A DNA stretch of 64,000 nt from Isurus oxyrinchus (taxonomy: Eukaryota): assembly GCA_026770705.1 (NCBI GenBank), contig JANJGN010000020.1, positions 86,862,001 to 86,926,000 on the forward strand, in the 5' to 3' direction. Shown here piece after piece: positions 327-63,988 of this stretch (its first letter is position 1; each line of letters begins with the position of its first letter). Below the pieces are notes generated by a model, which did no database searches, was not told where the DNA came from, and saw only the letters and a list, made by a program, of their open reading frames with translations. The translations under genes and the position numbers were made by a program.

Positions 327-1390
327 TTAATTGTAGGAGGCAGAGGGTGATGACAGAAGGATGCTTTAGTGACTGGAAGCCAGTGTCCAGTGGCGTACCA
401 CAGGGTTCTGTGCTGGGTCCTCTATTATTTGTTATTTATATAAACAACATAGATGACTATGTGTGGGGTAGGATTAGTAAGTTTGCGAATGACACAAAGA
501 TTGGCCGGGTGGTTAATGTTGAGTGTCTTAGGCTACAGGAAGATATAGTTGGATGGTCAAATGGGCAGATAAGTGGAAGTTGGAATTTAACCCTGAAAAC
601 TGAGGTGATACACTTTGGAAGGAGTAATTTGACAAGAAAGTATTCAATGAACGGCATGGCACTAAGAAGTTCTGAGGAAAAAAGAGACCTTGACGTGTGT
701 ATCCACAGATCTCTGAAGGCAGAGGGGCATGTTAGCGGGGTGGTGAAAAAGGCATATGGGACACTAGCCTTTATCAAGCGAGGCATAGATAACAAAAGTA
801 GGGAGGTCATGTTGGAGTTGTATAGAACCTTGGTGAGGCCATGGCTGGAGTACTGTGTGCAGTTCTGGTTGCCAAATTATAGGAAGGATGTGATTACACT
901 GGAGGGGGTGCAGAGGAGATTCACCAGGATGTTGCCTGGGATGAAACATTTAAGTTAAGAAGAGAGTTGGATAGACTTGGGTTGTTTTCGTTGGTGCAGA
1001 GAAGACTGAGGGGCGACCTGATCGAGGTGTACAAGATTATGAGGGGCATGGACAGGATGGATAGGGAGCAGCTGTTCCCCTTGGTTGAAGGGTCAGTCAC
1101 AAGAGGCATAAGTTCAAGGTGAGGGGCAAGAGGTTTAGGGAGGATGTGAGGAAAAACTTCTTTACCCAGAGGGTGGTGACAGTCCGAAATGCACTGCCTG
1201 GGAGGGTGGTGGAAGCGGGTTGCCTCACATCCTTTAAAAAGTAGCTGGATGAGCACTTGGCATGTCATAACATTCAAGGCTATGGGCCAAGTGCTGGTAA
1301 ATGGTATTAGGTAGGTAGGTCAGGTGTTTCTCACATGTCGGTGCAGACTCGATGGACCGAAGGGCCTCTTCTGCACTGTGATTCTGTAAA
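327..1390 (+). mobile_element. CR1-clade LINE, 5'-truncated 3' part (RT C-terminus + 3'UTR)
   Basis: SGVPQGSVLGPLLF..ISKFANDTK..LYRTLVRPWLEYCVQFW; CR1-type tail ctgcactgtgattctgta. Confidence 0.93.
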
Positions 1391-1834
1391 TTTATTCTTC
1401 AAACACATTTACCACATTAATCTTAAATTTCATATTGTCACCACTGTAATTTGTCCCAACTCACTTTCAGCCAAGAGACAGAATTACCCTTTCATGCTGA
1501 AAAACCTGAATGTATAATTCAACATACTGTAGTAACCTTCAAATAAAATGGCTCCTTTTTATGAAATTTAAAAAAATCACAGCTTGAATATTTTAAAAGA
1601 AAATAGTGTACACTTTTCTAATACAAATACTTTAAATGCTTCAGAGGTCAGGCTTAATATTCACAGGTCCTTTCTAGGAACACTGCATGTGGGAGTGGGG
1701 TGGCAGTAACAGCCAGGAGGAGTGTGGACAATTTTAGATGCTCCCTACACCCCTAAACCTGACTTGAGTCAGGTTGTAGAGAGATAAAGTCAGATCCTTT
1801 ACTTCACTACTTCATTTGACAGGTCAGCAATATG

Positions 1835-2388
1835 AGGTAGAATCTTGTGCCATCTCCCATAGCGTGTTTGGTGGTGGTAGTGATGGGGGGGTTGGTGGCG
1901 GCAGGGGCAGTTAATCAGACAGGATGGTGGTGGGTGGGGATCTGTCACCTTCCCCCACATCCACCCCAATGAAATCCTTGGTGGGAAGGTTTGTGGATGA
2001 CATTCCAGCCTCGGCAATTTAGGCCCTTAAGTAGGCAGAGGTATTAATTCAGTGGCAGACAAAGAGCTCACCATGCAAGGAGCACGACAAGCACACCTGT
2101 GCGGGGTTGCTTGCGGGCTCCTGTGGGTGGGGAGAAAGTGTGGTGTCCCACTCAAAGGCACTCAAGACACGGATTGAGGGACCCGGCACCAGGAAGGAGG
2201 AGGGGGAGGGCGTGGATGGTGGGGGCCACCGAGAGCCACCCCCCTGCCCTTGCTGCCGATCCACCTAAAGTCCTCCCCGACGTGAGCGGAATAAGTTGCA
2301 GCAGGACTTCCCAAAGAGGTGACCCGGGCCTCTCGCTTGTTCTCCAGCCTGCAGGTGGGACACCCTTCATCTCCACAAGATTTTGCCC
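1835..2388. mobile_element. MITE / non-autonomous DNA transposon, possibly PIF/Harbinger-like
   Basis: Imperfect TIRs ggtagaatcttgtg / cacaagattttgcc (12/14); 3-bp ATG on both flanks; GC-rich non-coding interior. Confidence 0.55.
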
Positions 2389-2639
2389 ATGTTTAACAAT
2401 GTTAGCCAAATTAATTTTACTACTCAAATAGTGAGTAGATAAACTTGAAGACACTTAAATTCACATCCCTTGCAAGCTACTGATAGTTCTACCACATATT
2501 CTACACAAATCACCTGGCCACTTTGCGCCAAGGAGGTTCCCAATTCCTGATGGCAATAGCCATCTGCTTTTACGAATGAAAATGCAATACTCTAAAGTAT
2601 GAAACTAAGGCTTTAGATCGGAACAAAACAAACAAAATG

Positions 2640-3240
2640 AATATCAAGGAAAAGTTGGCTAAGATAGACGGGGTAGCTAGATTGAAATGTATGACAGGAG
2701 ATGGCTAACAAGAAAAGATCAAATTCATAATTAGCAACAATAATACATTCATTCAAGAAATAAAAATCACATTAGAAAAGTGGCCCAATTGTGGCTAAAC
2801 AGAGGATAGTATTAGATTAAAGTGAGAGGTTTCTAACATTGCCAAAAAGGATGATTAAGAAAGTGATGAAACTAGAAAAAAACGGGATGAGTGTAAACTA
2901 GCTGGCGACAAAAAAAAAAGCACACTTAAAAGCTGAGAGTCATAATGGCACAGGAGACAGCCATTCGGCCCATCAAGCTCATGCTGTTCTCCATACAGGA
3001 AACCTGACAATCCCATTCCTCCACTCTATCCCCATGGGATGCAAGTTTATTTCACGAAAGTGTCCACCCAATTTCCTTTTAAAAATCATTGATCCTCTCT
3101 GCTTCCACTACCCTCATAGGCTGCTAGTTCCTGGTCATTAGTATCACATGAGTAAAAAGGTTCTTCTTCACATCACCTCGCTGGCATCTCTTGCCCAAAA
3201 TCTCCCTTGTACCATCAGTTAATGGGAACAGCTTTTCTTT
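2640..3240. mobile_element. Two decayed CR1 fragments (+ 2640-2900; - 3' end 2940-3240)
   Basis: Similar to other CR1 copies in the window (e.g. ggccattcggcccatc 3' tail motif). Confidence 0.6.
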
Positions 3241-3241
3241 T

Positions 3242-6200
3242 ATTATTCATTCACAGGATGTGGGCTTTGCTGGTTGGGCCAGCATTTATTGCCATCTCTA
3301 GTTGCCCTTGAGAAGGTGTTGAGGGCTGTTTTCTTGAACTGCTGCAGCTCCTGTGATGTTGGTACACCCACAGTGCTGTTACGAAGGGAGTAGTTCCAAG
3401 ATTTTGACCCAGCAACAATGAAGGAATGGCGTCATATTTCCAAATCAGGATGCTAAGTGACTTGGAGGGGAACTTCCAGGTGGTGGTGTTCCCATCTATC
3501 TGCTGCTCGTCTTTCCAGATGGTAGTGGTTGTGAGTTTGGAAGGTGCTGTCGAAGGAGCCTTGGTGAATTCTTGCAGTGCATCTTGTAGATGCTACACAC
3601 TGCCGCTACTATGCGTCGGTGGTGGAGGGATTGAATATTTGTGGCTATGGTGCCAATCAAATGGGTTGCTTTGTCCTGGACGATGGTCAAGCTTCTCGAG
3701 TGTTGTGGGAGCTGCACTCGTCCAGGCAAGTGGAGAGTAGTCCATCACACTCCTGACGTGTGCCTTGCAGATGGACAGGCTTTGGGGGGCAGGGGATCAG
3801 GTGGAGAGTTACTCATCGCACGATTCCTAGCCTCTGACCTGCTTTTGTAGCCACAGTATTTATGTGGCCAGTCCACTTCGGTTTCTGGTCAATGTTAACC
3901 TCCGGATATTGATAGTGGGGGATTCAGTGATGGTAATGCCATTGAACATCAAGGGGCAATGGTGAGATTCTCTCTTGTTGGAGATGGTCATTGTGTGACA
4001 CTTGTGTGGCGCGAATGTTACTTGCCACTTGTCAGCCCAAGCCTGGATATTGTCCAGGCTTTGCTGCATTGGGACATGACCTGCTTCAGTATCTGAGGAG
4101 TTGCGAATGGTGATGATTATTGTGCAATGATCAGCAAACATCCCCACTTCTGACCTTATGATGGAAGGAAGGTCATTAATGAAGCAGTTGAAGAAGGTTG
4201 GGCCTAGGACACTACCCTGAGGAACTCCTGCAGTGATGTCCTGGAGCTGAGATGACTGACCTCCAACTGCCACAACCATCTTCCTTTGTGCTAGGTATGA
4301 CTCCAACCAACATAGAGTTTTCCTCCTGATTCCCACTGATTCCAGTTTTGCTTGGGAACCTTGATGCCACACTTGATCAAATGCTGCCTTCATGTCAAGG
4401 GCAGTCACTCTCACCTCACCTGTGGAGTTCAGCTCTTTTGCCCATGTTTGAACCAAGGCTGTAATGAGGTCAGGAGCTGAGTGGCCTCGGCAGAACCCAA
4501 ACTGGGCATCAGTGATCAGGTTACTGCTAAACAAGTGCTGCTTGATAGAACTGTTGATGACCCCTTCCATTATTGATGAACGAGAGTAGACTGATGGGGC
4601 TGTAGTTGGCCCGGTTGGATTTGTCCTACTTTTTGTGTCCTATTTTTTGTATGTCCTACCCACCTGGGCAATTTTCCACATAGCCAGGCAGATGCCAGTG
4701 TTGTAGCTGTACAGAGACAGCTTGGCTAGGGGCATGACAAGTTCTGGAGCACAATTCTTCTGTACTATTGCTGGAATGTTGTGAGGGCCCATAGCCTTTG
4801 AAGTATCCAGTGCCTTCAGCCGTCTTTTGATATCACGTGGAGTGAATCCAATTGGCTGAAGACTGGCACCTGTGATGTTGGGGACCTCCAGAGGAGGCCG
4901 AAATGGATCATCTACTTAGCACTTCTGGCTGAAGATTGTTGCGAATGCTTCAGCCTTATCTTTTGCACTGCTGTGCTGGGCTCCTCCATCATTGAGGATG
5001 GGGATACTTGTGGAGCCTCCTCCACCAGTGAGTTGTTTAATTGTCCACCACCATTCATGACAGTATGTGGCAGGACTGCAGAGCTTAGATCTGAACCGTT
5101 GGTTGTGGAATCGCATAGTTATGTCTATCACTTAACAAAAACAGAATTACCTGGAAAAACTCAGCAGGTCTGGCAGCATCGGTGGAGAAGAAAAGAGCTG
5201 ATGTTTCGAGTCCTCATGACCCTTCAACAGAACTAGGTGAATCCAAACGTTTCAGTACAGCTACAACAACTGCTGAGTTTTTCCAGGTAATTCTGTTTTT
5301 GTTTTGGATTTCCAGCATCCGCAGTTTTTTTGTTTTTATGTCTATCACTTGCTGCTTATGCTGTTTAGCATGCAAGTAGTCCTGTGTTTTTGCTTTACCA
5401 GGTTGATACCTCTTTTTTTTTTAAAAAAGGTATGCCTGGTGCTGCTTCTGGCATGCCTCCCGTATTCTTCATTGAACCAGGGTTGATCCCCTGGCTAGAT
5501 GGTAATGGTAGAGTGGGGGATATGTCGGGCCATGATGTTACAGATTGTATTCGAGTACAATTCTGCTGCTACTGATGGCCCACAGCGCCTCATGGATGCC
5601 TTGAGTTGCTAGATCTGTTCGAAATCTATCCTATTTAATGCGGCGGTAGTGCCACACAACACTATAGAGGGTATCCTCAATGTGAAGGTGGGACTTTGTC
5701 TCCACAATGACTGTACGGTGGTCACCCCTACTGATACTGTCATGGACAGATGTATCTGTGGTAGGCAGGTTGGTGAGGATGAGGTGAAGTATGTTTTTTC
5801 CCCTCTTTTTGGTTCCCTCACCACCTGCCGCAGACCCAGTTTAGCAGCTATGTCATTTAGGATTTGGCCAGCTACCGAGCCACTCTTGGTAATGGTCATT
5901 GAAGTCCCCCACCCAGAGTACATTCTACGCTCTTGCCACACTCAGTGCTTCCTCCAAGTAGTGTTCAACATAGAGGAGCACTACTTCCTCAGCTGAAGGA
6001 GGGCAGTACGTGGTAATCGGCAGGAGGTTTCCTTGCCCATGTTTGACTTGATGCCATGAGACTTCATGTGGTCCGGGGTCGATGTTGAGGACTCCCAAGC
6101 TAACTCTCTCCTGACTGTATCTCACTGTGCCACCACCTTTGCTGGGTCTGTCCTGCCGGTGGGACAGGGCATACCAAGGGATAGTGATGATGGTGTCTGG

Positions 6201-16679: not shown

Positions 16680-16785
16680 ATAAAAAAAACAGAAAATGCT
16701 GGAAAAACTCAGCAGGTCTAACAGCATCTGTGGAGAGAAAGACAGGGTTAACGTTTTGAGTCTGTATGACTCTTCTTCAGAGCTG
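16680..16785 (-). mobile_element. Penelope-like terminal module (older subfamily) with canonical-core hammerhead remnant
   Basis: Minus strand: ct CTGAAGA A GAGTC ataca GACTC aAAA CGTT AAC. Confidence 0.75.
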
Positions 16786-18102: not shown

Positions 18103-18324
18103 AAAAGCAAAATACGGCGGATGCTGGATATCTGAAACAAAAACAGAAAATGCTGGAAAAGCTCAGCAGGTCTAGCAGCATCTGTGGATAGAGAAACAGA
18201 GTTAATGTTTCGAATCTGTATGACTCTGGAAAATGGCCATACGGACTCAAAACATTAACTCTGTTTCTCTCTCCACAGATGCTGCCAGACCTGCTGAGTT
18301 TTTCCAGTATTTTATGTTTTTGTG
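18103..18324. mobile_element. Penelope-like palindromic module (older subfamily), 14-bp TSD with 1 mismatch
   Basis: tgaaaagtaaggat 18089-18102 / tgaaaaataaggat 18325-18338; inverted arms. Confidence 0.82.
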
Positions 18325-30469: not shown

Positions 30470-31465
30470 TGAAGGAGGGTGGTAGGTGGTAATCAGCCTG
30501 ATAACCCAATTATATGGCCTGATGCCATGAGGCATCGGAGTCTGGCATCAATGTTGAAGACTGTCTTGAGAGCCATTCCTCCTTGCTGTAAACCACTGTA
30601 CTGCCACTTCTGGTGGGTCTATGCTGCTGGTGGGACAGGATATCCCAGGGGTAGGTGATAGAGGTATCTGAAACATTAGCTGTAAGGTTTGATTCAATGC
30701 GTATGACTATGTCAGGCTGTTGCTTGAATTGTCTGTAGGGCAGCTCTCCCAATTTTGGCGCACGTCTTCAGATGTTAATAAGGATGACTTTGAATGGTTG
30801 ACTGGGTGTGCATTTGTCGTTTCCAGTGCCGAAGTTGATGCCAGATGGTCTGTCCACTTCTATAATTTTTTTGGCTTTTCTGTAGCAGTTTGATAAAACT
30901 GAGTGCCTTGTTAGCCCAGTTCAGAAGACAGTTAAGAATTGAGCACATTCGTTTAGATAATATCACCAACTTCAACACCTCTGTGTTCTTTTGTCTGTGA
31001 TATCTTTTGATGATCTGCTCCTATCCTAACAACCCCCCCCACCCCCCCCCCCCCCCCCCACTTCTCCCCCCCCACCCCACCTTAAACCACCTTATATTTC
31101 CCTCTCCTTGTAAAGAAAGATCAGTTTCTGTTGAAGGGTCATGAGGACTCGAAACGTCAACTCTTTTCTTCTCCGCCGATGCTGCCAGACCTGCTGAGTT
31201 TGTCCAGGTAATTCTGTTTTTGTTAAGAATTGACATGTTGGTCTGAGTCATATATAAGCCAGACTAAGTAGATTTCTGTCCCTGAAGGACAGATGGATTT
31301 TTATGATTATCCAGTAGTTTCATGTTCGGCATTGCTAATCTTAGCATTTTATTCCAGATTTGTTAATTTGAATTTATATTCCACAAGCTGCGGTGATGGG
31401 ACTTGAACTTGTCCAGATATCTGGATTACTAGCCCAATACCATTATCACTAAGCTACTATCCCAG
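30470..31465 (-). mobile_element. 5' part of family B LINE (tRNA-like head + APE start), interrupted by a Penelope module
   Basis: Homologous to 5990-6720; PKLGELPYRQFKQQPDIVI; B-box-like gttcaagtccc on the minus strand at ~31398-31408. Confidence 0.8.
30943..31221 (+). mobile_element. Penelope-like 3' terminal fragment, 12-bp TSD, hammerhead fold at ~31124-31162
   Basis: TSD gttaagaattga at 30931-30942 / 31222-31233. Confidence 0.85.
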
Positions 31466-41554: not shown

Positions 41555-41950
41555 AGCGTTTTTTTTAAATTCCTGCTCCCACCCCACCCCCACTAGGGCT
41601 ATCTGTACCTTTCCTGTCCTGCTGTCTTCCCTTAATTAGCACATTCCTTTAGATAATATCACCACCTTCAACACCTCTTTGTCCTTTTGTCTGTGACATC
41701 TTTTGGTTATTTCCACCTATCACTGGCCCTCTACCTAGCTCCTCTTGTCCCAACCAACCATCCTCCACCCCCCCTTAAACCAGGTTATATTTCATCCCTT
41801 TTCTATTTCTACTTAGTTCTGTTGAAGGGTCATGAGGACTTGAAACGTCAACTGTGCTCTTCTCCGCCGATGCTGCCAGATCTGCTGAGTTTTTCCAGGT
41901 ATTTCTGTTTTTGTTTTGGATTTCCAGCATCCACAGTTCTTTGCTTTTAT
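41555..41950 (+). mobile_element. Penelope-like 3'UTR/terminal fragment with hammerhead fold (~41815-41853)
   Basis: Homologous to 63590-63985; agttCTGTTGAAGGGTCATGAGGACTtGAAACGTCaact. Confidence 0.85.
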
Positions 41951-43857: not shown

Positions 43858-44110
43858 ACAAAATCAGAATTACCTGGAAAAACTCAGCAGGTCCGGCAGC
43901 ATCAGCGGAGAAGAAAAGAGTTGACGTTTCGAGTCCTCATGACCCTTCGACAGAACTTGAGTTCGACAGAACTCAAGTTCTGTCGAAGGGTCATGAGGAC
44001 TCGAAACGTCAACTCTTTTCTTCTCCGCTGATGCTGCCGGACCTGCTGAGTTTTTCCAGGTAATTCTGATTTTGTTTTGGATTTCCAGCATCTGCAGTTT
44101 TTTTGTTTTT
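43858..44110. mobile_element. Penelope-like perfect palindromic module, 14-bp TSD
   Basis: TSD ataagaaataggaa at 43844-43857 / 44111-44124; ~109-bp arms (43856-43964, 43969-44077) around loop gaca. Confidence 0.92.
43976..44014 (+). ncRNA. Minimal type-I hammerhead-like ribozyme motif (variant core)
   Basis: AGUU-CUGUCGA-A-GGGUC-AUGAG-GACUC-GAAAC-GUC^AACU: stem I AGUU/AACU, stem II GGGUC/GACUC, palindromic ACGU stem III. Confidence 0.7.
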
Positions 44111-56834: not shown

Positions 56835-56937
56835 ACACAAAAACAGAATTACCTGGAAAAACTCAGCAGGTCTGGCAGCATCGGCGGAGAAGAAAAGAGT
56901 TGACGTTTCGAGTCCTCATGACCCTTCAACAGAACGG
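56835..56937 (-). mobile_element. Penelope-like ~100-bp terminal module, 14-bp TSD with 1 mismatch
   Basis: aatccttatcactg 56821-56834 / aatccttattactg 56938-56951; the copy ends at the hammerhead 5' edge. Confidence 0.85.
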
Positions 56938-57149: not shown

Positions 57150-58302
57150 GATTCCCCTCTTCTTAAAACAAAAGTAATCCTTAAGTTTATATAATCACAA
57201 TCAGTATATATTTTTCATTCAATATATTCACCTTATTCCCCTCAAAAAAAGAACATGTATAGATATGTCCATACAGAATATTTTTTTCTTCTGAAAAAGG
57301 CGTCATCTTGGAGTTCGCTCCTCTTTTGGTGAAGCAGCCAGATGATTGGTAGCTGCTATCAATCCATTTGGATCTTGGCAATCCTCCTTATTCTCAAGCG
57401 TCTGTTTTAAGTTTGCAATGTCAATTCATAATCTCTTCTCCTTAACGCACTTTGTAGAGTGAACATTTTCCCCAAAGTGACTTATTATCTATAAGACACT
57501 TGATAAGTATTGTTCCTGAATACCCTCTTCCATTTAAAATTTCTGCCAGTATCATTGATATAAAGAATGTCATATCTACTGCCTCAACAAGAGTGAGAGT
57601 CTCCGCTGCCCAACGTACTTTTAAAAACTTTTTGTACCTTTTTTAAATTCTCATGCCAGAGGGCAGCATTTGCCTTTTTCCCCTATGAAAAATATTATAA
57701 ATCCTCCTGCACTCGAAAATCTATTACGTAGATTTGCATAACATGCATCACTGAACTCAATCAGTTTCATTTTTCTAACATCACCCAAAGATGGGAATTT
57801 CAAAACACACTGCTCTGTTTTTAATTTTGTCAATATTTTGTTTGCCCAAATGATTTCTTCAATCTTGGGATCATTCATTTTAGTGCTCAATTCCAAAACG
57901 TCAAAACTGAAGTCTGGCCTTGTTCGTTTGCCTAGCCAATTGAGGTGCCCAATTTGACTTCTGAGTTCCTTTTTCTGTTTTAGAAGCCACTGTATCTTTC
58001 TGGGAGGCCATACCATGACTAATTGTAATGGGATTGACGTTCTCTAAGTAGGATTGCTGATGTAAAAGTATGTGTGATTCACTCTGCCTGATTTCCAATC
58101 CAGTATACAATGCACCAGAAGCCTGACCTCCAATTTTAAACTCCGTTCTGAGCCCATTAATGACAACCATTTCAAATTCGCTACTACCACCCCACAAAAA
58201 ATGTAGATTATAAAGATGCCTGCAAGTTTCCCTCCATGGTGCCAATAAAAAATTGCCAGGTCTGCTGCCAACTGAGGACAGCCCAACTTTAACAAAACTG
58301 AG

Positions 58303-58534
58303 GTAAAAGCAAAAAACTGCGGATGCTGGAAATCCAAAACAAAAACAAAAATACCTGGAAAAACTCAGCACATCTGGCAGCATCTGCAGAGAGGAGCACA
58401 GTTAACATTTCAAGTCTGAATGACCCTTCAACAGAACAGTTCTGTTGAAGGTTCATTCGGACTCGAAACGTTAACTGTGCTCCTCTCAGCAGATGTTGCC
58501 AGACCTGCTGAGTTTTTCCAGGTGTTTTTGTTTT
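58303..58534. mobile_element. Penelope-like palindromic module inserted in copia RT, 11-bp TSD
   Basis: TSD acaaaactgag at 58292-58302 / 58535-58545; removing the insert restores VWYFSVSSVLLKLGC; palindrome centre cagaac-a-gttctg. Confidence 0.9.
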
Positions 58535-61500
58535 ACAAAACTGAGCTCACTGAGAAATACCAAACTCGAAGCGCCATTTAAACCATTTACGCACTTATTT
58601 AGCTTCCAGAGAGTGTCTTCTGCGTTTGGCGCCTCTTTCGGTGGACAGAGAAAAACTTCCCTTTGAAGTTAATGTCCCTGCAAAAAGGCATCTTTAATAT
58701 CAGTGGAATAACAGTCCCAAGCATTTGTAGCTAATAGACCCAAAAAAATCTTCAGCATAATCGTTCTGCTGTAAGCGAATGTACTCTTACATCCTCGTCA
58801 GCCATTTTTTCTTCAAACCCTCGTGTCACTAATCTGCCTTCAGCTTTGTAAGCCCCGTTAGGAAGCACCTTTTCCATGCAGAGGCAGAGTTGATTATCCC
58901 CTATTTCGCACCTCTGTGTATACCCCAAATTCTTTCCAACTATGTAGTTCTAGCTTTGGCCTTTATTAATCCTTTATTAATTTATCATCTAATTTGTTTG
59001 GAGCTACTAAGACTTCTCGATCACATGGGCTTCTGCTCCTTGTAGCATTACCAGTCTCAGCCATATTTCTTGACCTTGTTAAGCTACGCCATCTATCCTG
59101 CCTTCTATCACACTCGACTGTTCCTGTTTGATCTCCCGCTCCCATTTATAGATGTTCTTTCAATAGTTCGCGATCTCTTCCTGAAGGCATGTTCACTCCC
59201 AGATCCACTGTTGAACTGATATTATGTTTCCATGCCTTCCATTTTTATACTTCATGTTCCCAATGCATAAGTTCAATCTCCTATCCTTCATTTTGTACAT
59301 TCCAGTGGCCTTCCCTGCTCTACCTACAAATGTTGCATCCTGCTGTTGATTGGTCCCTTCTGGCAAATATGTAACTTTAGTACCAGTTTTCAACAGTTGT
59401 CCTCTGGGACAAATTGCCTTATCTTGGTCATCCGAATTACAGCCTCCATCTTCAGATACCCTGTCAACTTCAGCTACCTGGCCCTCTCAATCATGGCTAT
59501 GATAAGTACATGATTCCTTGTCCCTTCCTACAACAGTCTCCAAATGCAAATTTGTAGTCCACACCAACTAACCTTGATGAGTGTTCCCAAATAGTCTGGT
59601 TCCCATGTTGTAAAAATAATTGTTTTACCATCTTTACCTATAATATTTCTCTGGCCTTTCTACTTGTTAAATCCCTCTCTTTTATAGTATACTCTGTCTC
59701 CCTGATTGAAAATAGATTTTGATGGCGTACATGATGTCTTAGAGCTCGCCGAATTCTTTCTGAAATTTTGGCTTTAAGGAACGTTCTCCTAATTGCGTGT
59801 AGTGCGTTTAAATGCTCAGAAAGGGTGGAGCTAATCATAGTGCCCTCAAGCTGGGGGATGATCAATCAGGTCTGAAGGAATTTTTTGGGTTTCTACCAAA
59901 AAACCAACTGATATGGACTATAGCCTCCAACCATCTGCAATGAATTCTTGGTATGGACAGCTCACACTAGAGCTGATAATTTGCAGTTTGGTCTATCTGC
60001 CAATATTTTACGAAGCATCTCATCTATCACCACGTGATTCCTTTCACACACTCTGTTACTAATAGGGCTCTCTGCTGCTCTATTAATAATGATTATATTC
60101 ACGTTTTTTCATATAACCCAAAACTCATCGTTAGTGAACTCCCACCCCATTACTCGTGAGGAGTTTTGCCACTGGTCCCAATCCGGTCCTTATCCACTTT
60201 TCCATTATCTGATCCACAATTATTTTCTTTTCTTTACTATGTATGATTGTCATCTGGCTAAACCTTGTGGCCAAATCGACGAAATGCAACTGCATTGAAA
60301 TCCCTCGCTAAGGGTCGACTCACTATGGGCTGCGACAGTGTCTTTTTGGATTTCTTATATATATCACATCTATGGCTTATCTCCTCTATAAGTTTAGTGT
60401 GCTCTCCATCCCTTAGCAAATTTTTTAATCTTTGTGAAGAACCTTTGTGGGCAAACTGCTGATGCAATTTTAACACAATTAGCTTTTTGTTTTCTAAATT
60501 CCTATCCCCTGATGCTAATAACACTTCTTTAGTCTCCTTAGTAGAAAAGTTAGGTTTCATTGAAGGAAGACAGTAGTGTTCAGATTGTGTAAATTGCAAA
60601 TCCACAGTTTTTCCAAATACAATAGCTTTGTTATTCCCCATGTCCAGCTTCATTTGCACTTTTTTCATCGATGACCTCAACAGCAACGATATTTCACGGG
60701 ACACTACGTCAGTACTGATGAAATGATTGATTCCAGCTATCTTACAGGGAATTATTACCCTTTTTAAAGATTTTAGGGTATTATCATCTCCAAATCTAAA
60801 GCTGGTGGAACTCTCAAATTCCTTAACCTTATTCCTTGTCATTTAAGGAGTCCAGGTAGTATTTTAACCAGTCTATTCCACAGAATGTAGACGTGCATCC
60901 TCCATCTAGCACCACACAGTTGAAGGATTCTGCAACCAAGACATTCATTACTGGGCTGAAACTTCATATAACCAATACAATGCCCTCTCTTTGGTCAATA
61001 TCTCCATCTTCTTCCGAGTCTTGTCTCATGTTTAATTTTGAACACATTATACCATTTAGGACAGTTCATTGTATAATTTTATTTTGAATTGCATCTAAAA
61101 CACCGATTGACCACACCCTGGGCCTTTCTGGGGCTCATCTTTTGTTGTTATTCCCCAATTCTGTTCTCCTGCCATAATTGTCAAAGGTGTTTCTATCCTC
61201 GTTGTTTCTAGTTACATATCTCCTTTCGTACTGATGCCTGCATCCTGTTTCTAGACAATCTCGCCATCCTGTTCACGTTGTATCCTCCATTTTCTGTCTT
61301 GCCACTGAATGACACATTTGCACCATGAATGCTGCCAAGAAGGAATGTTTTCCGAGAATTTTTTTTTAGATCTTCTGACATCTGTTCTAGCAGTGTATGT
61401 CTTTCTGCAAATTTAACTCCCATCAAAACTAGAAACCTGTCTGTATTCGATGCTCTGGCGCGGTCAGTAACTGAAATGCCAGCACGAATTGCAAAAATTC

Positions 61501-62609: not shown

Positions 62610-62950
62610 GTAAGTGAAACATAATTTATGTTATTGGAAATTCTCCTGTGTAAATGTCAAGTATTGAGGGAATGAAAAAAATTAAAAAATTTTTTTGTTT
62701 TAATAAGAATTGACCTGACAAAAACTTACAGGATCAAATGTTTGTTAAAACGATATGCCAAAACGATGAAAAATAATGAAACAATGTTGATGTATCATGA
62801 GTTAAATATTGTAAACTTGGTCTTGACATTCAGAATCTTGCTCTGGCACTTCTGAAATGAAATAAATCTGCAAGCCCATATTTGCATATTCTGCAAGTCC
62901 TCAGTCTTTTCTACGTGCTCCCTCTGTCCATCATCAGGTGATCTCAGAGA

Positions 62951-63988
62951 TAAAAACAAAAAAACTGCAGATGCTGGAAATCCAAAACAAAAACAGAATT
63001 ACCTGGAAAAACTCAGCAGGTCCGGCAGCATCAGCGGAGAAGAAAAGAGTTGACGTTTCGAGTCCTCATGACCCTTCGACAGAACTTGAGTTTGAATCCA
63101 AGAAAGAGTTGAAATATAAGCTGGTTTAAGGTGTGTGTGTGGGGGGCGGAGAGATAGAGAGAGAGAGAGAAGTGGGGGGGTGGGGGGCGGTGGGTGTGTG
63201 GTTGTGGGGACAAACAAGCAGTGATAGAAGCAGATCATCAAAAGATGTCAACGACAATGGTACAATAGAACACATAGGTGTTAAAGTTGGTGATATTATC
63301 TAAACGAATGTGCTAATTAAGAATGGATGGTAGGGCACTCAAGGTATAGCTCTAGTGGGGGTGTTTTTTTATTATATAATGGAAATAGGTGGGAAAAGGA
63401 AAATCTTTATAATTTATTGGAAAAAAAAGGAAGGGGGAAACAGAAAGGGGGTGGGGATGGGGGAGGGAGCTCACGACCTAAAGTTGTTGAATTCAATATT
63501 TCCCCCTTTTTTTTCCAATAAATTATAAAGATTTTCCTTTTCCCACCTATTTCCATTATATAATAAAAAAAACACCCCCACTAGAGCTATACCTTGAGTG
63601 CCCTACCATCCATTCTTAATTAGCACATTCGTTTAGATAATATCACCAACTTTAACTTTAACACCTATGTGTTCTATTGTACCATTGTCGTTGACATCTT
63701 TTGATGATCTGCTTCTATCACTGCTTGTTTGTCCACACAACCACACACCCACCGCCCCCCCCCCCCACCTCTCTATCTCTCCGCCCCCCACACACACACC
63801 TTAAACCAGCTTATATTTCAACTCTTTCTTGGATTCGAACTCAAGTTCTGTCGAAGGGTCATGAGGACTCGAAACGTCAACTCTTTTCTTCTCCGCCGAT
63901 GCTGCCAGACCTGCTGAGTTTTTCCAGGTAATTCGGTAATTCTGTTTTTGTTTTGGATTTCCAGCAACTGCAGTTTTTTTGTTTTTAT
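62951..63988. mobile_element. Young Penelope-like element: ~490-bp head-to-head inverted 3'UTR/pLTR arms around the ORF C-terminus
   Basis: Arms ~62951-63439 and ~63499-63988 are reverse complements. The spacer encodes NIEFNNFRS* on the minus strand (63471-63500), the type of ending I recall for GIY-YIG Penelope ORFs. Confidence 0.88.
63844..63882 (+). ncRNA. Minimal type-I hammerhead-like ribozyme motif (variant core); mirror copy on the minus strand at ~63047-63087
   Basis: Identical to 43976-44014. Confidence 0.7.

What the first reader, a model, noticed from the sequence alone, without database searches (positions are those of the whole stretch)
58303..58534. Penelope truncation and fold-back points cluster at the 5' edge of the hammerhead
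Seen: the palindrome at 58303-58534 turns exactly at stem I (cagaac-a-gttctg). The one at 43858-44110 turns ~7 nt upstream of stem I, and the one at 18103-18324 turns inside the ribozyme. The single-arm copies at 56835-56937 and 16680-16785 end within a few nt of stem I, and the long arm at 5134 ends ~15 nt beyond it. Inference: the ribozyme fold stalls reverse transcription and triggers template switching, repeatedly generating 100-250 bp hammerhead-containing mini-elements with 11-14 bp TSDs. Alternatively these are a retrozyme-like non-autonomous class.
Basis: partly seen in the sequence, partly recalled or inferred. Interest (0 to 1): 0.7.

Follow-up and report, generated by a model that had tools for sequence, protein, structure and literature searches.

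The report
Penelope copies share one fixed start
About a third of the sampled copy ends of a common jumping gene stop within 18 bases of the front edge of its small ribozyme motif, likely because that edge is where the element's RNA begins, not because the RNA fold blocks copying, which gives a testable clue to how this poorly understood class copies itself.

Summary
The clustering is real. In 1.6 Mb of evenly spaced genome stretches, 66 of 194 arms of this Penelope-like family (Neptune/Nematis type) end within -12..+5 of the hammerhead core. That rate is 6 times the rate on the 3' side and 11 times the rate on the 5' side, and a simulation shows the caller does not create the peak. There is no peak at the cleavage site.

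All 37 short palindromes have different junctions, so they form de novo; this is not an amplifying retrozyme family. 38 of 45 palindromes carry the tail on one arm only, and in 17 of those the tail-less arm reaches further 5', so neither arm can be a copy of the other.

Best reading (0.55): the edge is the RNA's 5' end, a transcription start about 30 nt below a conserved TATA-like box. Minis would be run-off cDNAs, and palindromes two such cDNAs primed from both target nicks. No RNA 5' end could be measured. Earlier notes of this scan saw the edge on other DNA (another genome and this one). I did not find it in print.

The parts
58303..58437 (-). Tailed arm of the palindromic mini insertion; 5' end at -3; tail at about 58303-58341
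58438..58534 (+). Tail-less arm; starts at A(-4), the first base of stem I
58438..58476 (+). Minimal type I hammerhead: stem I 58438-41 pairs with 58473-76; variant core CUGUUGA at 58442-48; predicted cut after 58472
   Evidence: sequence; architecture as in PMC4209133; not detected by Rfam
58292..58302 (+). Left copy of the 11-bp TSD (right copy 58535-58545)
43858..44110 (.). Palindromic mini of subfamily B2; arms end at -13 and -11; tail on the right arm; 14-bp TSD 43844-57 / 44111-24
18103..18324 (.). Palindromic mini of the old subfamily C; arms end inside the ribozyme; tail on the left arm; 14-bp TSD with 1 mismatch
56835..56937 (-). Single tail-less arm ending at -3 plus 2 filler bases; 14-bp TSD with 1 mismatch
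16680..16785 (-). Single tail-less arm of subfamily C ending at -4; no TSD found
5134..5335 (.). Asymmetric palindrome: tail-less arm reaches about -15, tailed arm starts near +58; 15-bp TSD
41786..41792 (+). TATA-like box at -33 in a longer copy (about 41700-41949) that passes the edge
63812..63818 (+). TATA-like box at -36 in the long B2 palindrome 62947-63985
31075..31224 (+). Longer copy that passes the edge (purine-rich spacer variant)

Best explanation
The short copies of this Penelope-like retrotransposon pile up at the 5' edge of the hammerhead likely because the element's RNA begins there, at a predicted transcription start about 30 nt below a TATA-like box. Shown: the pile-up; two 3' end sites about 34 nt apart (about +98 and +132); one tail per palindrome; unique junctions; TSDs. 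Inferred step 1: in a full transcript the two RT start sites near the 5' end (pLTR-ORF junction) lie only about 100 and 135 nt from the cap, so RT primed there would run off the RNA end and leave a mini. Inferred step 2: the protein would nick both target strands about 12-14 bp apart and prime one cDNA from each nick, one at each start site. Joining the two cDNA 3' ends with microhomology or filler would give a head-to-head palindrome; losing one would give a single arm. Inferred step 3: copies that pass the edge (57 of the 123 arms that reach +5) would come from read-through or tandem templates, or from a jump to the 3' pLTR. The ribozyme would mark the edge only because it sits at the start of the transcript.
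For: The edge has a sharp 5' side and a skirt on the 3' side, as a template end would. TATA[AT][AT] starts at -32..-36 in 21 of 28 long copies (2 of these mis-anchored by about 5 nt); the spacer below it varies in sequence but little in length, and the edge lies at T/C-A-G-T-T in most subfamilies. The edge moves with the box. Subfamily A (box at -33): 17 of 19 short arms end at -4..0, none at -5..-9. Subfamily B2 (box at -36): 14 of 30 end at -8..-13. Fisher p 0.001; stem I is unchanged. Arms pair short with short (37) or long with long (6), and only 2 are mixed against 11.8 expected (p 6e-6). Exactly one tail in 38 of 45 palindromes against 22.4 expected (p 1.4e-6), while single arms carry a tail in 47 of 104. 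The tail-less arm reaches 5 nt or more further 5' in 17 of 38. 3 of 17 ORF-linked copies that reach the upstream ribozyme start at -9, -4 and -3 (p 0.022 against local background). PMC11167929 (parts 1-2 of 4 read): a Poseidon protein cleaves and extends both strands, starts RT at two internal sites that flank the tail on an RNA spanning the pLTR-ORF junction, is predicted to be a dimer, and does not need ribozyme cleavage. PMC3846280 (passages): TATA plus Inr-like motif in a rotifer pLTR.
Against: No RNA 5' end was measured; all 8 runs laid are contigs, which cannot show starts. The modal end in subfamily A is G(-3), not A(-4), and B2 ends at -8/-9/-11 do not all fit a pyrimidine-purine start. 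B2 also has its own 12-nt self-complementary stretch at -11..0 that could explain its shift. The box in A and B2 (TATATTT) is an imperfect match to the consensus (consensus recalled). In D. virilis the promoter is internal and TATA-less, with the start at 371 and the intron at 416-491 (PMC2377424, passages), and the intron ends at helix I (PMC4209133), so there the start lies about 120 nt above the ribozyme. The in vitro data come from another clade.
Confidence: 0.55

Rival explanations
1. The RNA has a fixed 5' end at the fold's edge, made by a 5'-to-3' exonuclease that would be halted by the ribozyme fold or a bound protein after upstream cleavage or decapping. Run-off and twin priming then follow as in the best explanation.
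For: An exonuclease would stop at the 5' foot of stem I, which is where the peak is. The extra B2 hairpin at -11..0 could move the stop. Precedent for nuclease resistance of a ribozyme fold at an R2 template's 5' end: PMC11371274 (passage).
Against: The fold is weak, unlike the HDV double pseudoknot. The TATA-like box at canonical distance in 21 of 28 copies would be a coincidence.
Confidence: 0.13
2. One reading: the ribozyme fold, or a protein bound to it, stalls or releases RT and triggers a template switch.
For: The peak coincides with the ribozyme in old and young subfamilies. There is a weak excess on the second pass (3 of 17). A few palindromes pair an edge arm with one starting at +31..+38, as stem I microhomology would allow (L042, L136, L149, L186).
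Against: No peak at the 3' foot of stem I (3 of 101 arms). The fold is weak. Independent stalls would give about 12 mixed short/long pairs, and 2 were seen. 17 of 38 palindromes cannot be fold-back copies. The edge shifts while stem I does not.
Confidence: 0.12
3. The AG at -4/-3 is a splice acceptor, and minis are copies of spliced RNA whose homology to the element ends at the exon junction.
For: In D. virilis the intron ends at the 5' end of helix I (PMC4209133, part 2 read). AG preceded by a pyrimidine tract occurs in most subfamilies.
Against: TSDs often abut the edge with 0-2 filler bases, and I saw no common upstream exon among 51 single arms. One subfamily has a purine-rich spacer that contains an AG. 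B2 ends lie above the AG. Stem I pairing alone explains why AG is kept. No GT..AG joint into the site was among the joints shown (65 joints were not shown).
Confidence: 0.07
4. The minis are a self-amplifying, non-autonomous class (retrozyme-like or SINE-like).
For: They are very numerous (149 insertions in 1.6 Mb) and similar in length.
Against: 37 of 37 junction pairs are distinct. The minis carry the same subfamily sequences as long copies. They lack the TATA-like box. The short arms examined were single or head-to-head, not tandem monomers, which define non-LTR retrozymes (10.64898/2026.07.22.740005, part 1 and passages).
Confidence: 0.05
5. Hammerhead self-cleavage sets the RNA end, or the peak is an artefact of detection and alignment.
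For: The ribozyme is more conserved than the spacer above it, which could stop alignments there.
Against: Cleavage would put ends at +31, where there is no peak. In the simulation, 2 of 69 longer copies were miscalled into the window. An alignment-free count shows the same edge.
Confidence: 0.03

Closest known systems
EN+ Penelope-like elements, Neptune/Nematis type (PMC8557442, passages)
   Same: RT followed by a C-terminal GIY-YIG domain, CX2-5CxxC linker, partial tandem with pLTR, adjacent inverted 5'-truncated copy, 30-40-bp tail on one end, heavy 5' truncation
   Different: The passages read describe no preferred 5' endpoint; here a third of arms share one
Poseidon of Anolis carolinensis, PAc (PMC11167929, parts 1-2 of 4)
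   Same: Two internal RT start sites that flank the tail; both strands cleaved and extended; ribozyme cleavage not needed in vitro
   Different: Other clade (no linker motif); its ORF starts in stem II; the parts read do not link 5' ends or palindromes to the transcript start
Minimal type I hammerheads of metazoan PLEs (PMC4209133, parts 1-2 of 4)
   Same: Short helix I, no helix III, an extra base before G10.1, pairs on opposite strands 100-700 bp apart already noted
   Different: The young subfamilies here have U at core position 6; the paper proposes cleavage and circles, which would put ends at the cut site, not at the 5' edge
Non-LTR retrozymes (10.64898/2026.07.22.740005, part 1 and passages)
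   Same: Short, non-coding, hammerhead-bearing and derived from a pLTR
   Different: Retrozymes are tandem repeats; these are single or head-to-head ends with unique junctions
L1 twin priming (PMC2837659, search listing only) and retroviral minus-strand strong-stop DNA (recalled)
   Same: Two primers at staggered nicks give an inversion; RT primed near the RNA 5' end runs off
   Different: L1's second primer anneals at variable internal sites; here both cDNAs start at fixed sites and overlap, giving a palindrome. No tRNA primer; the RNase H-dependent transfer of retroviruses has no known counterpart here (recalled)

Membership tests
EN+ Penelope-like element | RT plus C-terminal GIY-YIG endonuclease with CCHH motif | tested here: met
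   L095 ORF has RT motifs (YIDD) and a GIY-YIG-type domain with cysteines inside it; the Pfam GIY-YIG hit is weak, E 4e-4, below the cut-off; this copy is broken by a stop and a frameshift
EN+ Penelope-like element | Partial tandem with pLTRs, inverted truncated copy, 30-40-bp tail | tested here: met
   L095 unit of 3320 nt with an upstream pLTR; 45 inverted pairs; 3' ends near +98 and +132
Neptune/Nematis clade | CX2-5CxxC linker between RT and EN | tested here: met
   C-X4-C-X2-C motif in L095 against the definition in PMC8557442
Neptune clade (as against Nematis) | Placement in the RT phylogeny | not tested
   no tree built
Minimal type I hammerhead | Stems I and II and the GAAAC-GUH arrangement | tested here: met
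   stem I of 4 bp, stem II of 5 bp
Minimal type I hammerhead | Canonical core CUGANGA | tested here: not met
   CUGUUGA or CUGUCGA in subfamilies A and B2; canonical in old subfamily C
Minimal type I hammerhead | Self-cleavage | not testable with these tools
   needs an in vitro assay
Non-LTR retrozyme | Tandem monomers, each with a hammerhead | tested here: not met
   short arms examined in the window and the 1.6 Mb sample were single or head-to-head; no dedicated tandem-array search was run
Non-LTR retrozyme or SINE | Self-amplifying lineage with shared ends and junctions | tested here: not met
   37 distinct breakpoint pairs in 37 short palindromes
Non-LTR retrozyme | Circular RNA intermediates | not testable with these tools
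   only contigs were available

The most novel reading that the evidence does not exclude
Penelope-like elements prime reverse transcription near the 5' end of their RNA, make a short strong-stop cDNA that ends at the transcription start, and must jump to the 3' pLTR to copy the rest. Failed jumps are the minis, twin strong-stop products are the palindromes, and repeated jumps build the partial tandem. This would be a retrovirus-like strand transfer in a telomerase-related RT.
Probability: 0.3. Interest if true: 0.8.

Novelty: new variant of a known kind. Interest (0 to 1): 0.5.

Why it matters
How Penelope-like elements make pLTRs, inverted copies and tails is still open, and so is the role of their hammerhead. 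A fixed 5' end in a third of arms, one tail per palindrome and arms that are not copies of each other constrain that cycle. They argue against cleavage-defined ends and against simple fold-back, and they give exact positions for a 5' RACE or in vitro test. The elements themselves are an ordinary member of a known class.

Tried and rejected
Rfam does not detect the minimal hammerhead; the only hit was a U5 copy. Two genome searches with consensus-like B2 3' ends returned nothing because common words are skipped. RNA evidence: 22 runs listed, all contigs. Eight were laid; none shows starts, and no GT..AG joint was among those shown, neither for the suspected intron below the ribozyme nor into -2. 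This is uninformative. One run shows 95 contigs with mixed loose ends at -4, but subfamily differences could add to that, so I do not count it. Shared private variants between palindrome arms: the test was spoiled by a loose subfamily label; 3 shared variants in 16 pairs once one old pair is dropped, so inconclusive on one RNA against two. A cap-derived extra G could not be told from microhomology. A search for a second hammerhead family with different spacing found none (1 hit, same family; strict pattern). Hits needed the whole ribozyme, so they were kept out of the rate test; they were included in the subfamily edge count. Similarity-picked sets hold more long copies: 19 of 29, 18 of 29 and 11 of 20 in the young sets, 3 of 29 in the old one. 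Literature searches found no paper reporting this endpoint; the library lacks most subscription papers, and no supplements were read.

Full report
What was checked. With C3 of the hammerhead core as 0, their 5' ends are -3/-4 (58303), -13/-11 (43858), about +7/+12 (18103), -3 (56835), -4 (16680) and about -15/+58 (5134). TSDs are 11, 14, 14, 14 and 15 bp; none was found for 16680. Four further insertions in the window were not listed: three run past the edge and one old copy ends near +27.

What the element is. A partial tandem in the sample (L095, about 790-4456) has a 3320-nt unit. [quoted passage not shown] By the definitions in PMC8557442 (passages) this is an EN+ Penelope-like element of Neptune/Nematis type. 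The ribozyme is a minimal type I hammerhead as in PMC4209133 (parts 1-2): stem I -4..-1 pairs with +31..+34, stem II +8..+12 pairs with +18..+22, and the predicted cut is after +30. Young subfamilies (A, B, B2) have U at core position 6; the old one (C) is canonical. The host looks like a shark by earlier scan notes and my recall; I did not test this.

Is the cluster real? I took 160 evenly spaced 10-kb stretches from contigs C1-C20 and found arms with queries lying 3' of the core: 206 hits, 194 kept. 5' ends were called against 28 long natural copies. 66 of 194 end in -12..+5. The rate per nt is 0.040 there, 0.0067 at +13..+50 and 0.0035 at -50..-13 (p 2e-19 and 7e-16). The excess holds for single arms, for the 82 arms at identity 0.9 or more, for one arm per insertion, and for A/B/B2 and C separately. 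A simulation of 140 uniform truncations gave 25 true and 24 called ends in that window. The density is 149 insertions in 1.6 Mb.

De novo or amplifying? All 37 short palindromes have different breakpoint pairs, many with filler. The minis carry the same subfamily sequences as long copies.

How palindromes form. 3' ends fall at two sites, near +98 and near +132, which is the known tail. 38 of 45 head-to-head pairs have exactly one tailed arm (22.4 expected; p 1.4e-6), 5 have two and 2 have none; single arms are tailed in 47 of 104. In 17 of the 38 the tail-less arm reaches at least 5 nt further 5', in 8 the tailed arm does, and 13 are within 4 nt (10 against 3 among 22 better-preserved pairs). 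Where each arm holds sequence that the other lacks, neither was copied from the other, so fold-back onto the new cDNA cannot be the general route. PMC11167929 shows that a Poseidon protein cleaves and extends both target strands, starts at two sites flanking the tail, and is predicted to be a dimer. Twin priming from the two nicks is therefore my inference. Short pairs with short (37) and long with long (6); 2 pairs are mixed against 11.8 expected. This means both arms see the same kind of template. PMC3846280 (passages and Discussion) explained such palindromes by self-priming on an antisense template; that model is not excluded by experiment, but it does not predict the fixed edge.

Why this edge? 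Cleavage would give ends at +31, and a stall would give ends at the 3' foot of stem I; 3 of 101 A/B/B2 arms end at +28..+37 against 37 at -12..+5. The fold is weak. The distribution has a cliff on the 5' side and a skirt on the 3' side, as expected for a template end followed by slight trimming. Above the edge, a TATA-like motif starts at -32..-36 in 21 of 28 long copies, and the spacer varies in sequence but little in length. In subfamily A (box at -33), 17 of 19 short arms with a whole core end at -4..0. In B2 (box at -36), 14 of 30 end at -8..-13 (p 0.001, which pools random and similarity-picked loci). Among 20 of the 40 ORF-start hits fetched, 17 reach the upstream ribozyme; 3 begin at -9, -4 and -3, and 14 go on.

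Against this reading. No RNA start was observed. The low second-pass stop rate requires read-through templates or efficient jumps. B2 has a self-complementary 12-mer at -11..0 that could also shift its ends. In D. virilis the promoter is internal and TATA-less and the start lies about 120 nt above the ribozyme, with an intron ending at helix I (PMC2377424, passages; PMC4209133). The splice-acceptor rival is weakened because TSDs often abut the edge and no common exon was seen among 51 single arms. The exonuclease-protection rival has an R2 precedent (PMC11371274, passage) and cannot be excluded from DNA alone.

Verdict. The element and its insertion shapes are known. The fixed endpoint and the arm statistics were not found in nine literature searches. 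Earlier notes of this scan reported the edge in another genome and in this one, and twin priming in this one; I reached these readings before those look-ups, and the notes are not independent proof. They prompted the check that placed the element in the Neptune/Nematis type. Interest 0.5.

Noticed in passing
window:25762-25884: U5 snRNA copy (Rfam RF00020, 54.6 bits), possibly a pseudogene
   Followed up: no
L095:1120-1207: Possible short intron (GT donor below the ribozyme, AG before the ORF's first ATG). In B2 the upstream reading frame that starts inside the pLTR has a stop at this donor; old subfamily C keeps it open. No spliced joint was seen in contigs.
   Followed up: partly
window:58442-58448 and 43980-43986: Young subfamilies have U at hammerhead core position 6 yet are abundant, which suggests that cleavage is not needed
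   Followed up: partly
L095:1008-1037 and other long copies: The same B-type ribozyme and 3' end is joined to at least five different spacers at -5..-25; this may reflect free promoter-spacer evolution or recombination at the edge
   Followed up: no
window:62947-63985: Long head-to-head insertion with arms of about 500 nt that are nearly identical; the tail pattern differs from the minis (both arms appear tailed)
   Followed up: no
window:28610-28709: 100-base run of N (assembly gap or withheld stretch)
   Followed up: no
window:38256-38364: 41-nt inverted repeat unrelated to the Penelope family
   Followed up: no
L069:4543 and L276: Filler of 17-18 nt between the TSD and the element's 5' end; in L069 it repeats the neighbouring target DNA, as templated end-joining would give
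   Followed up: no
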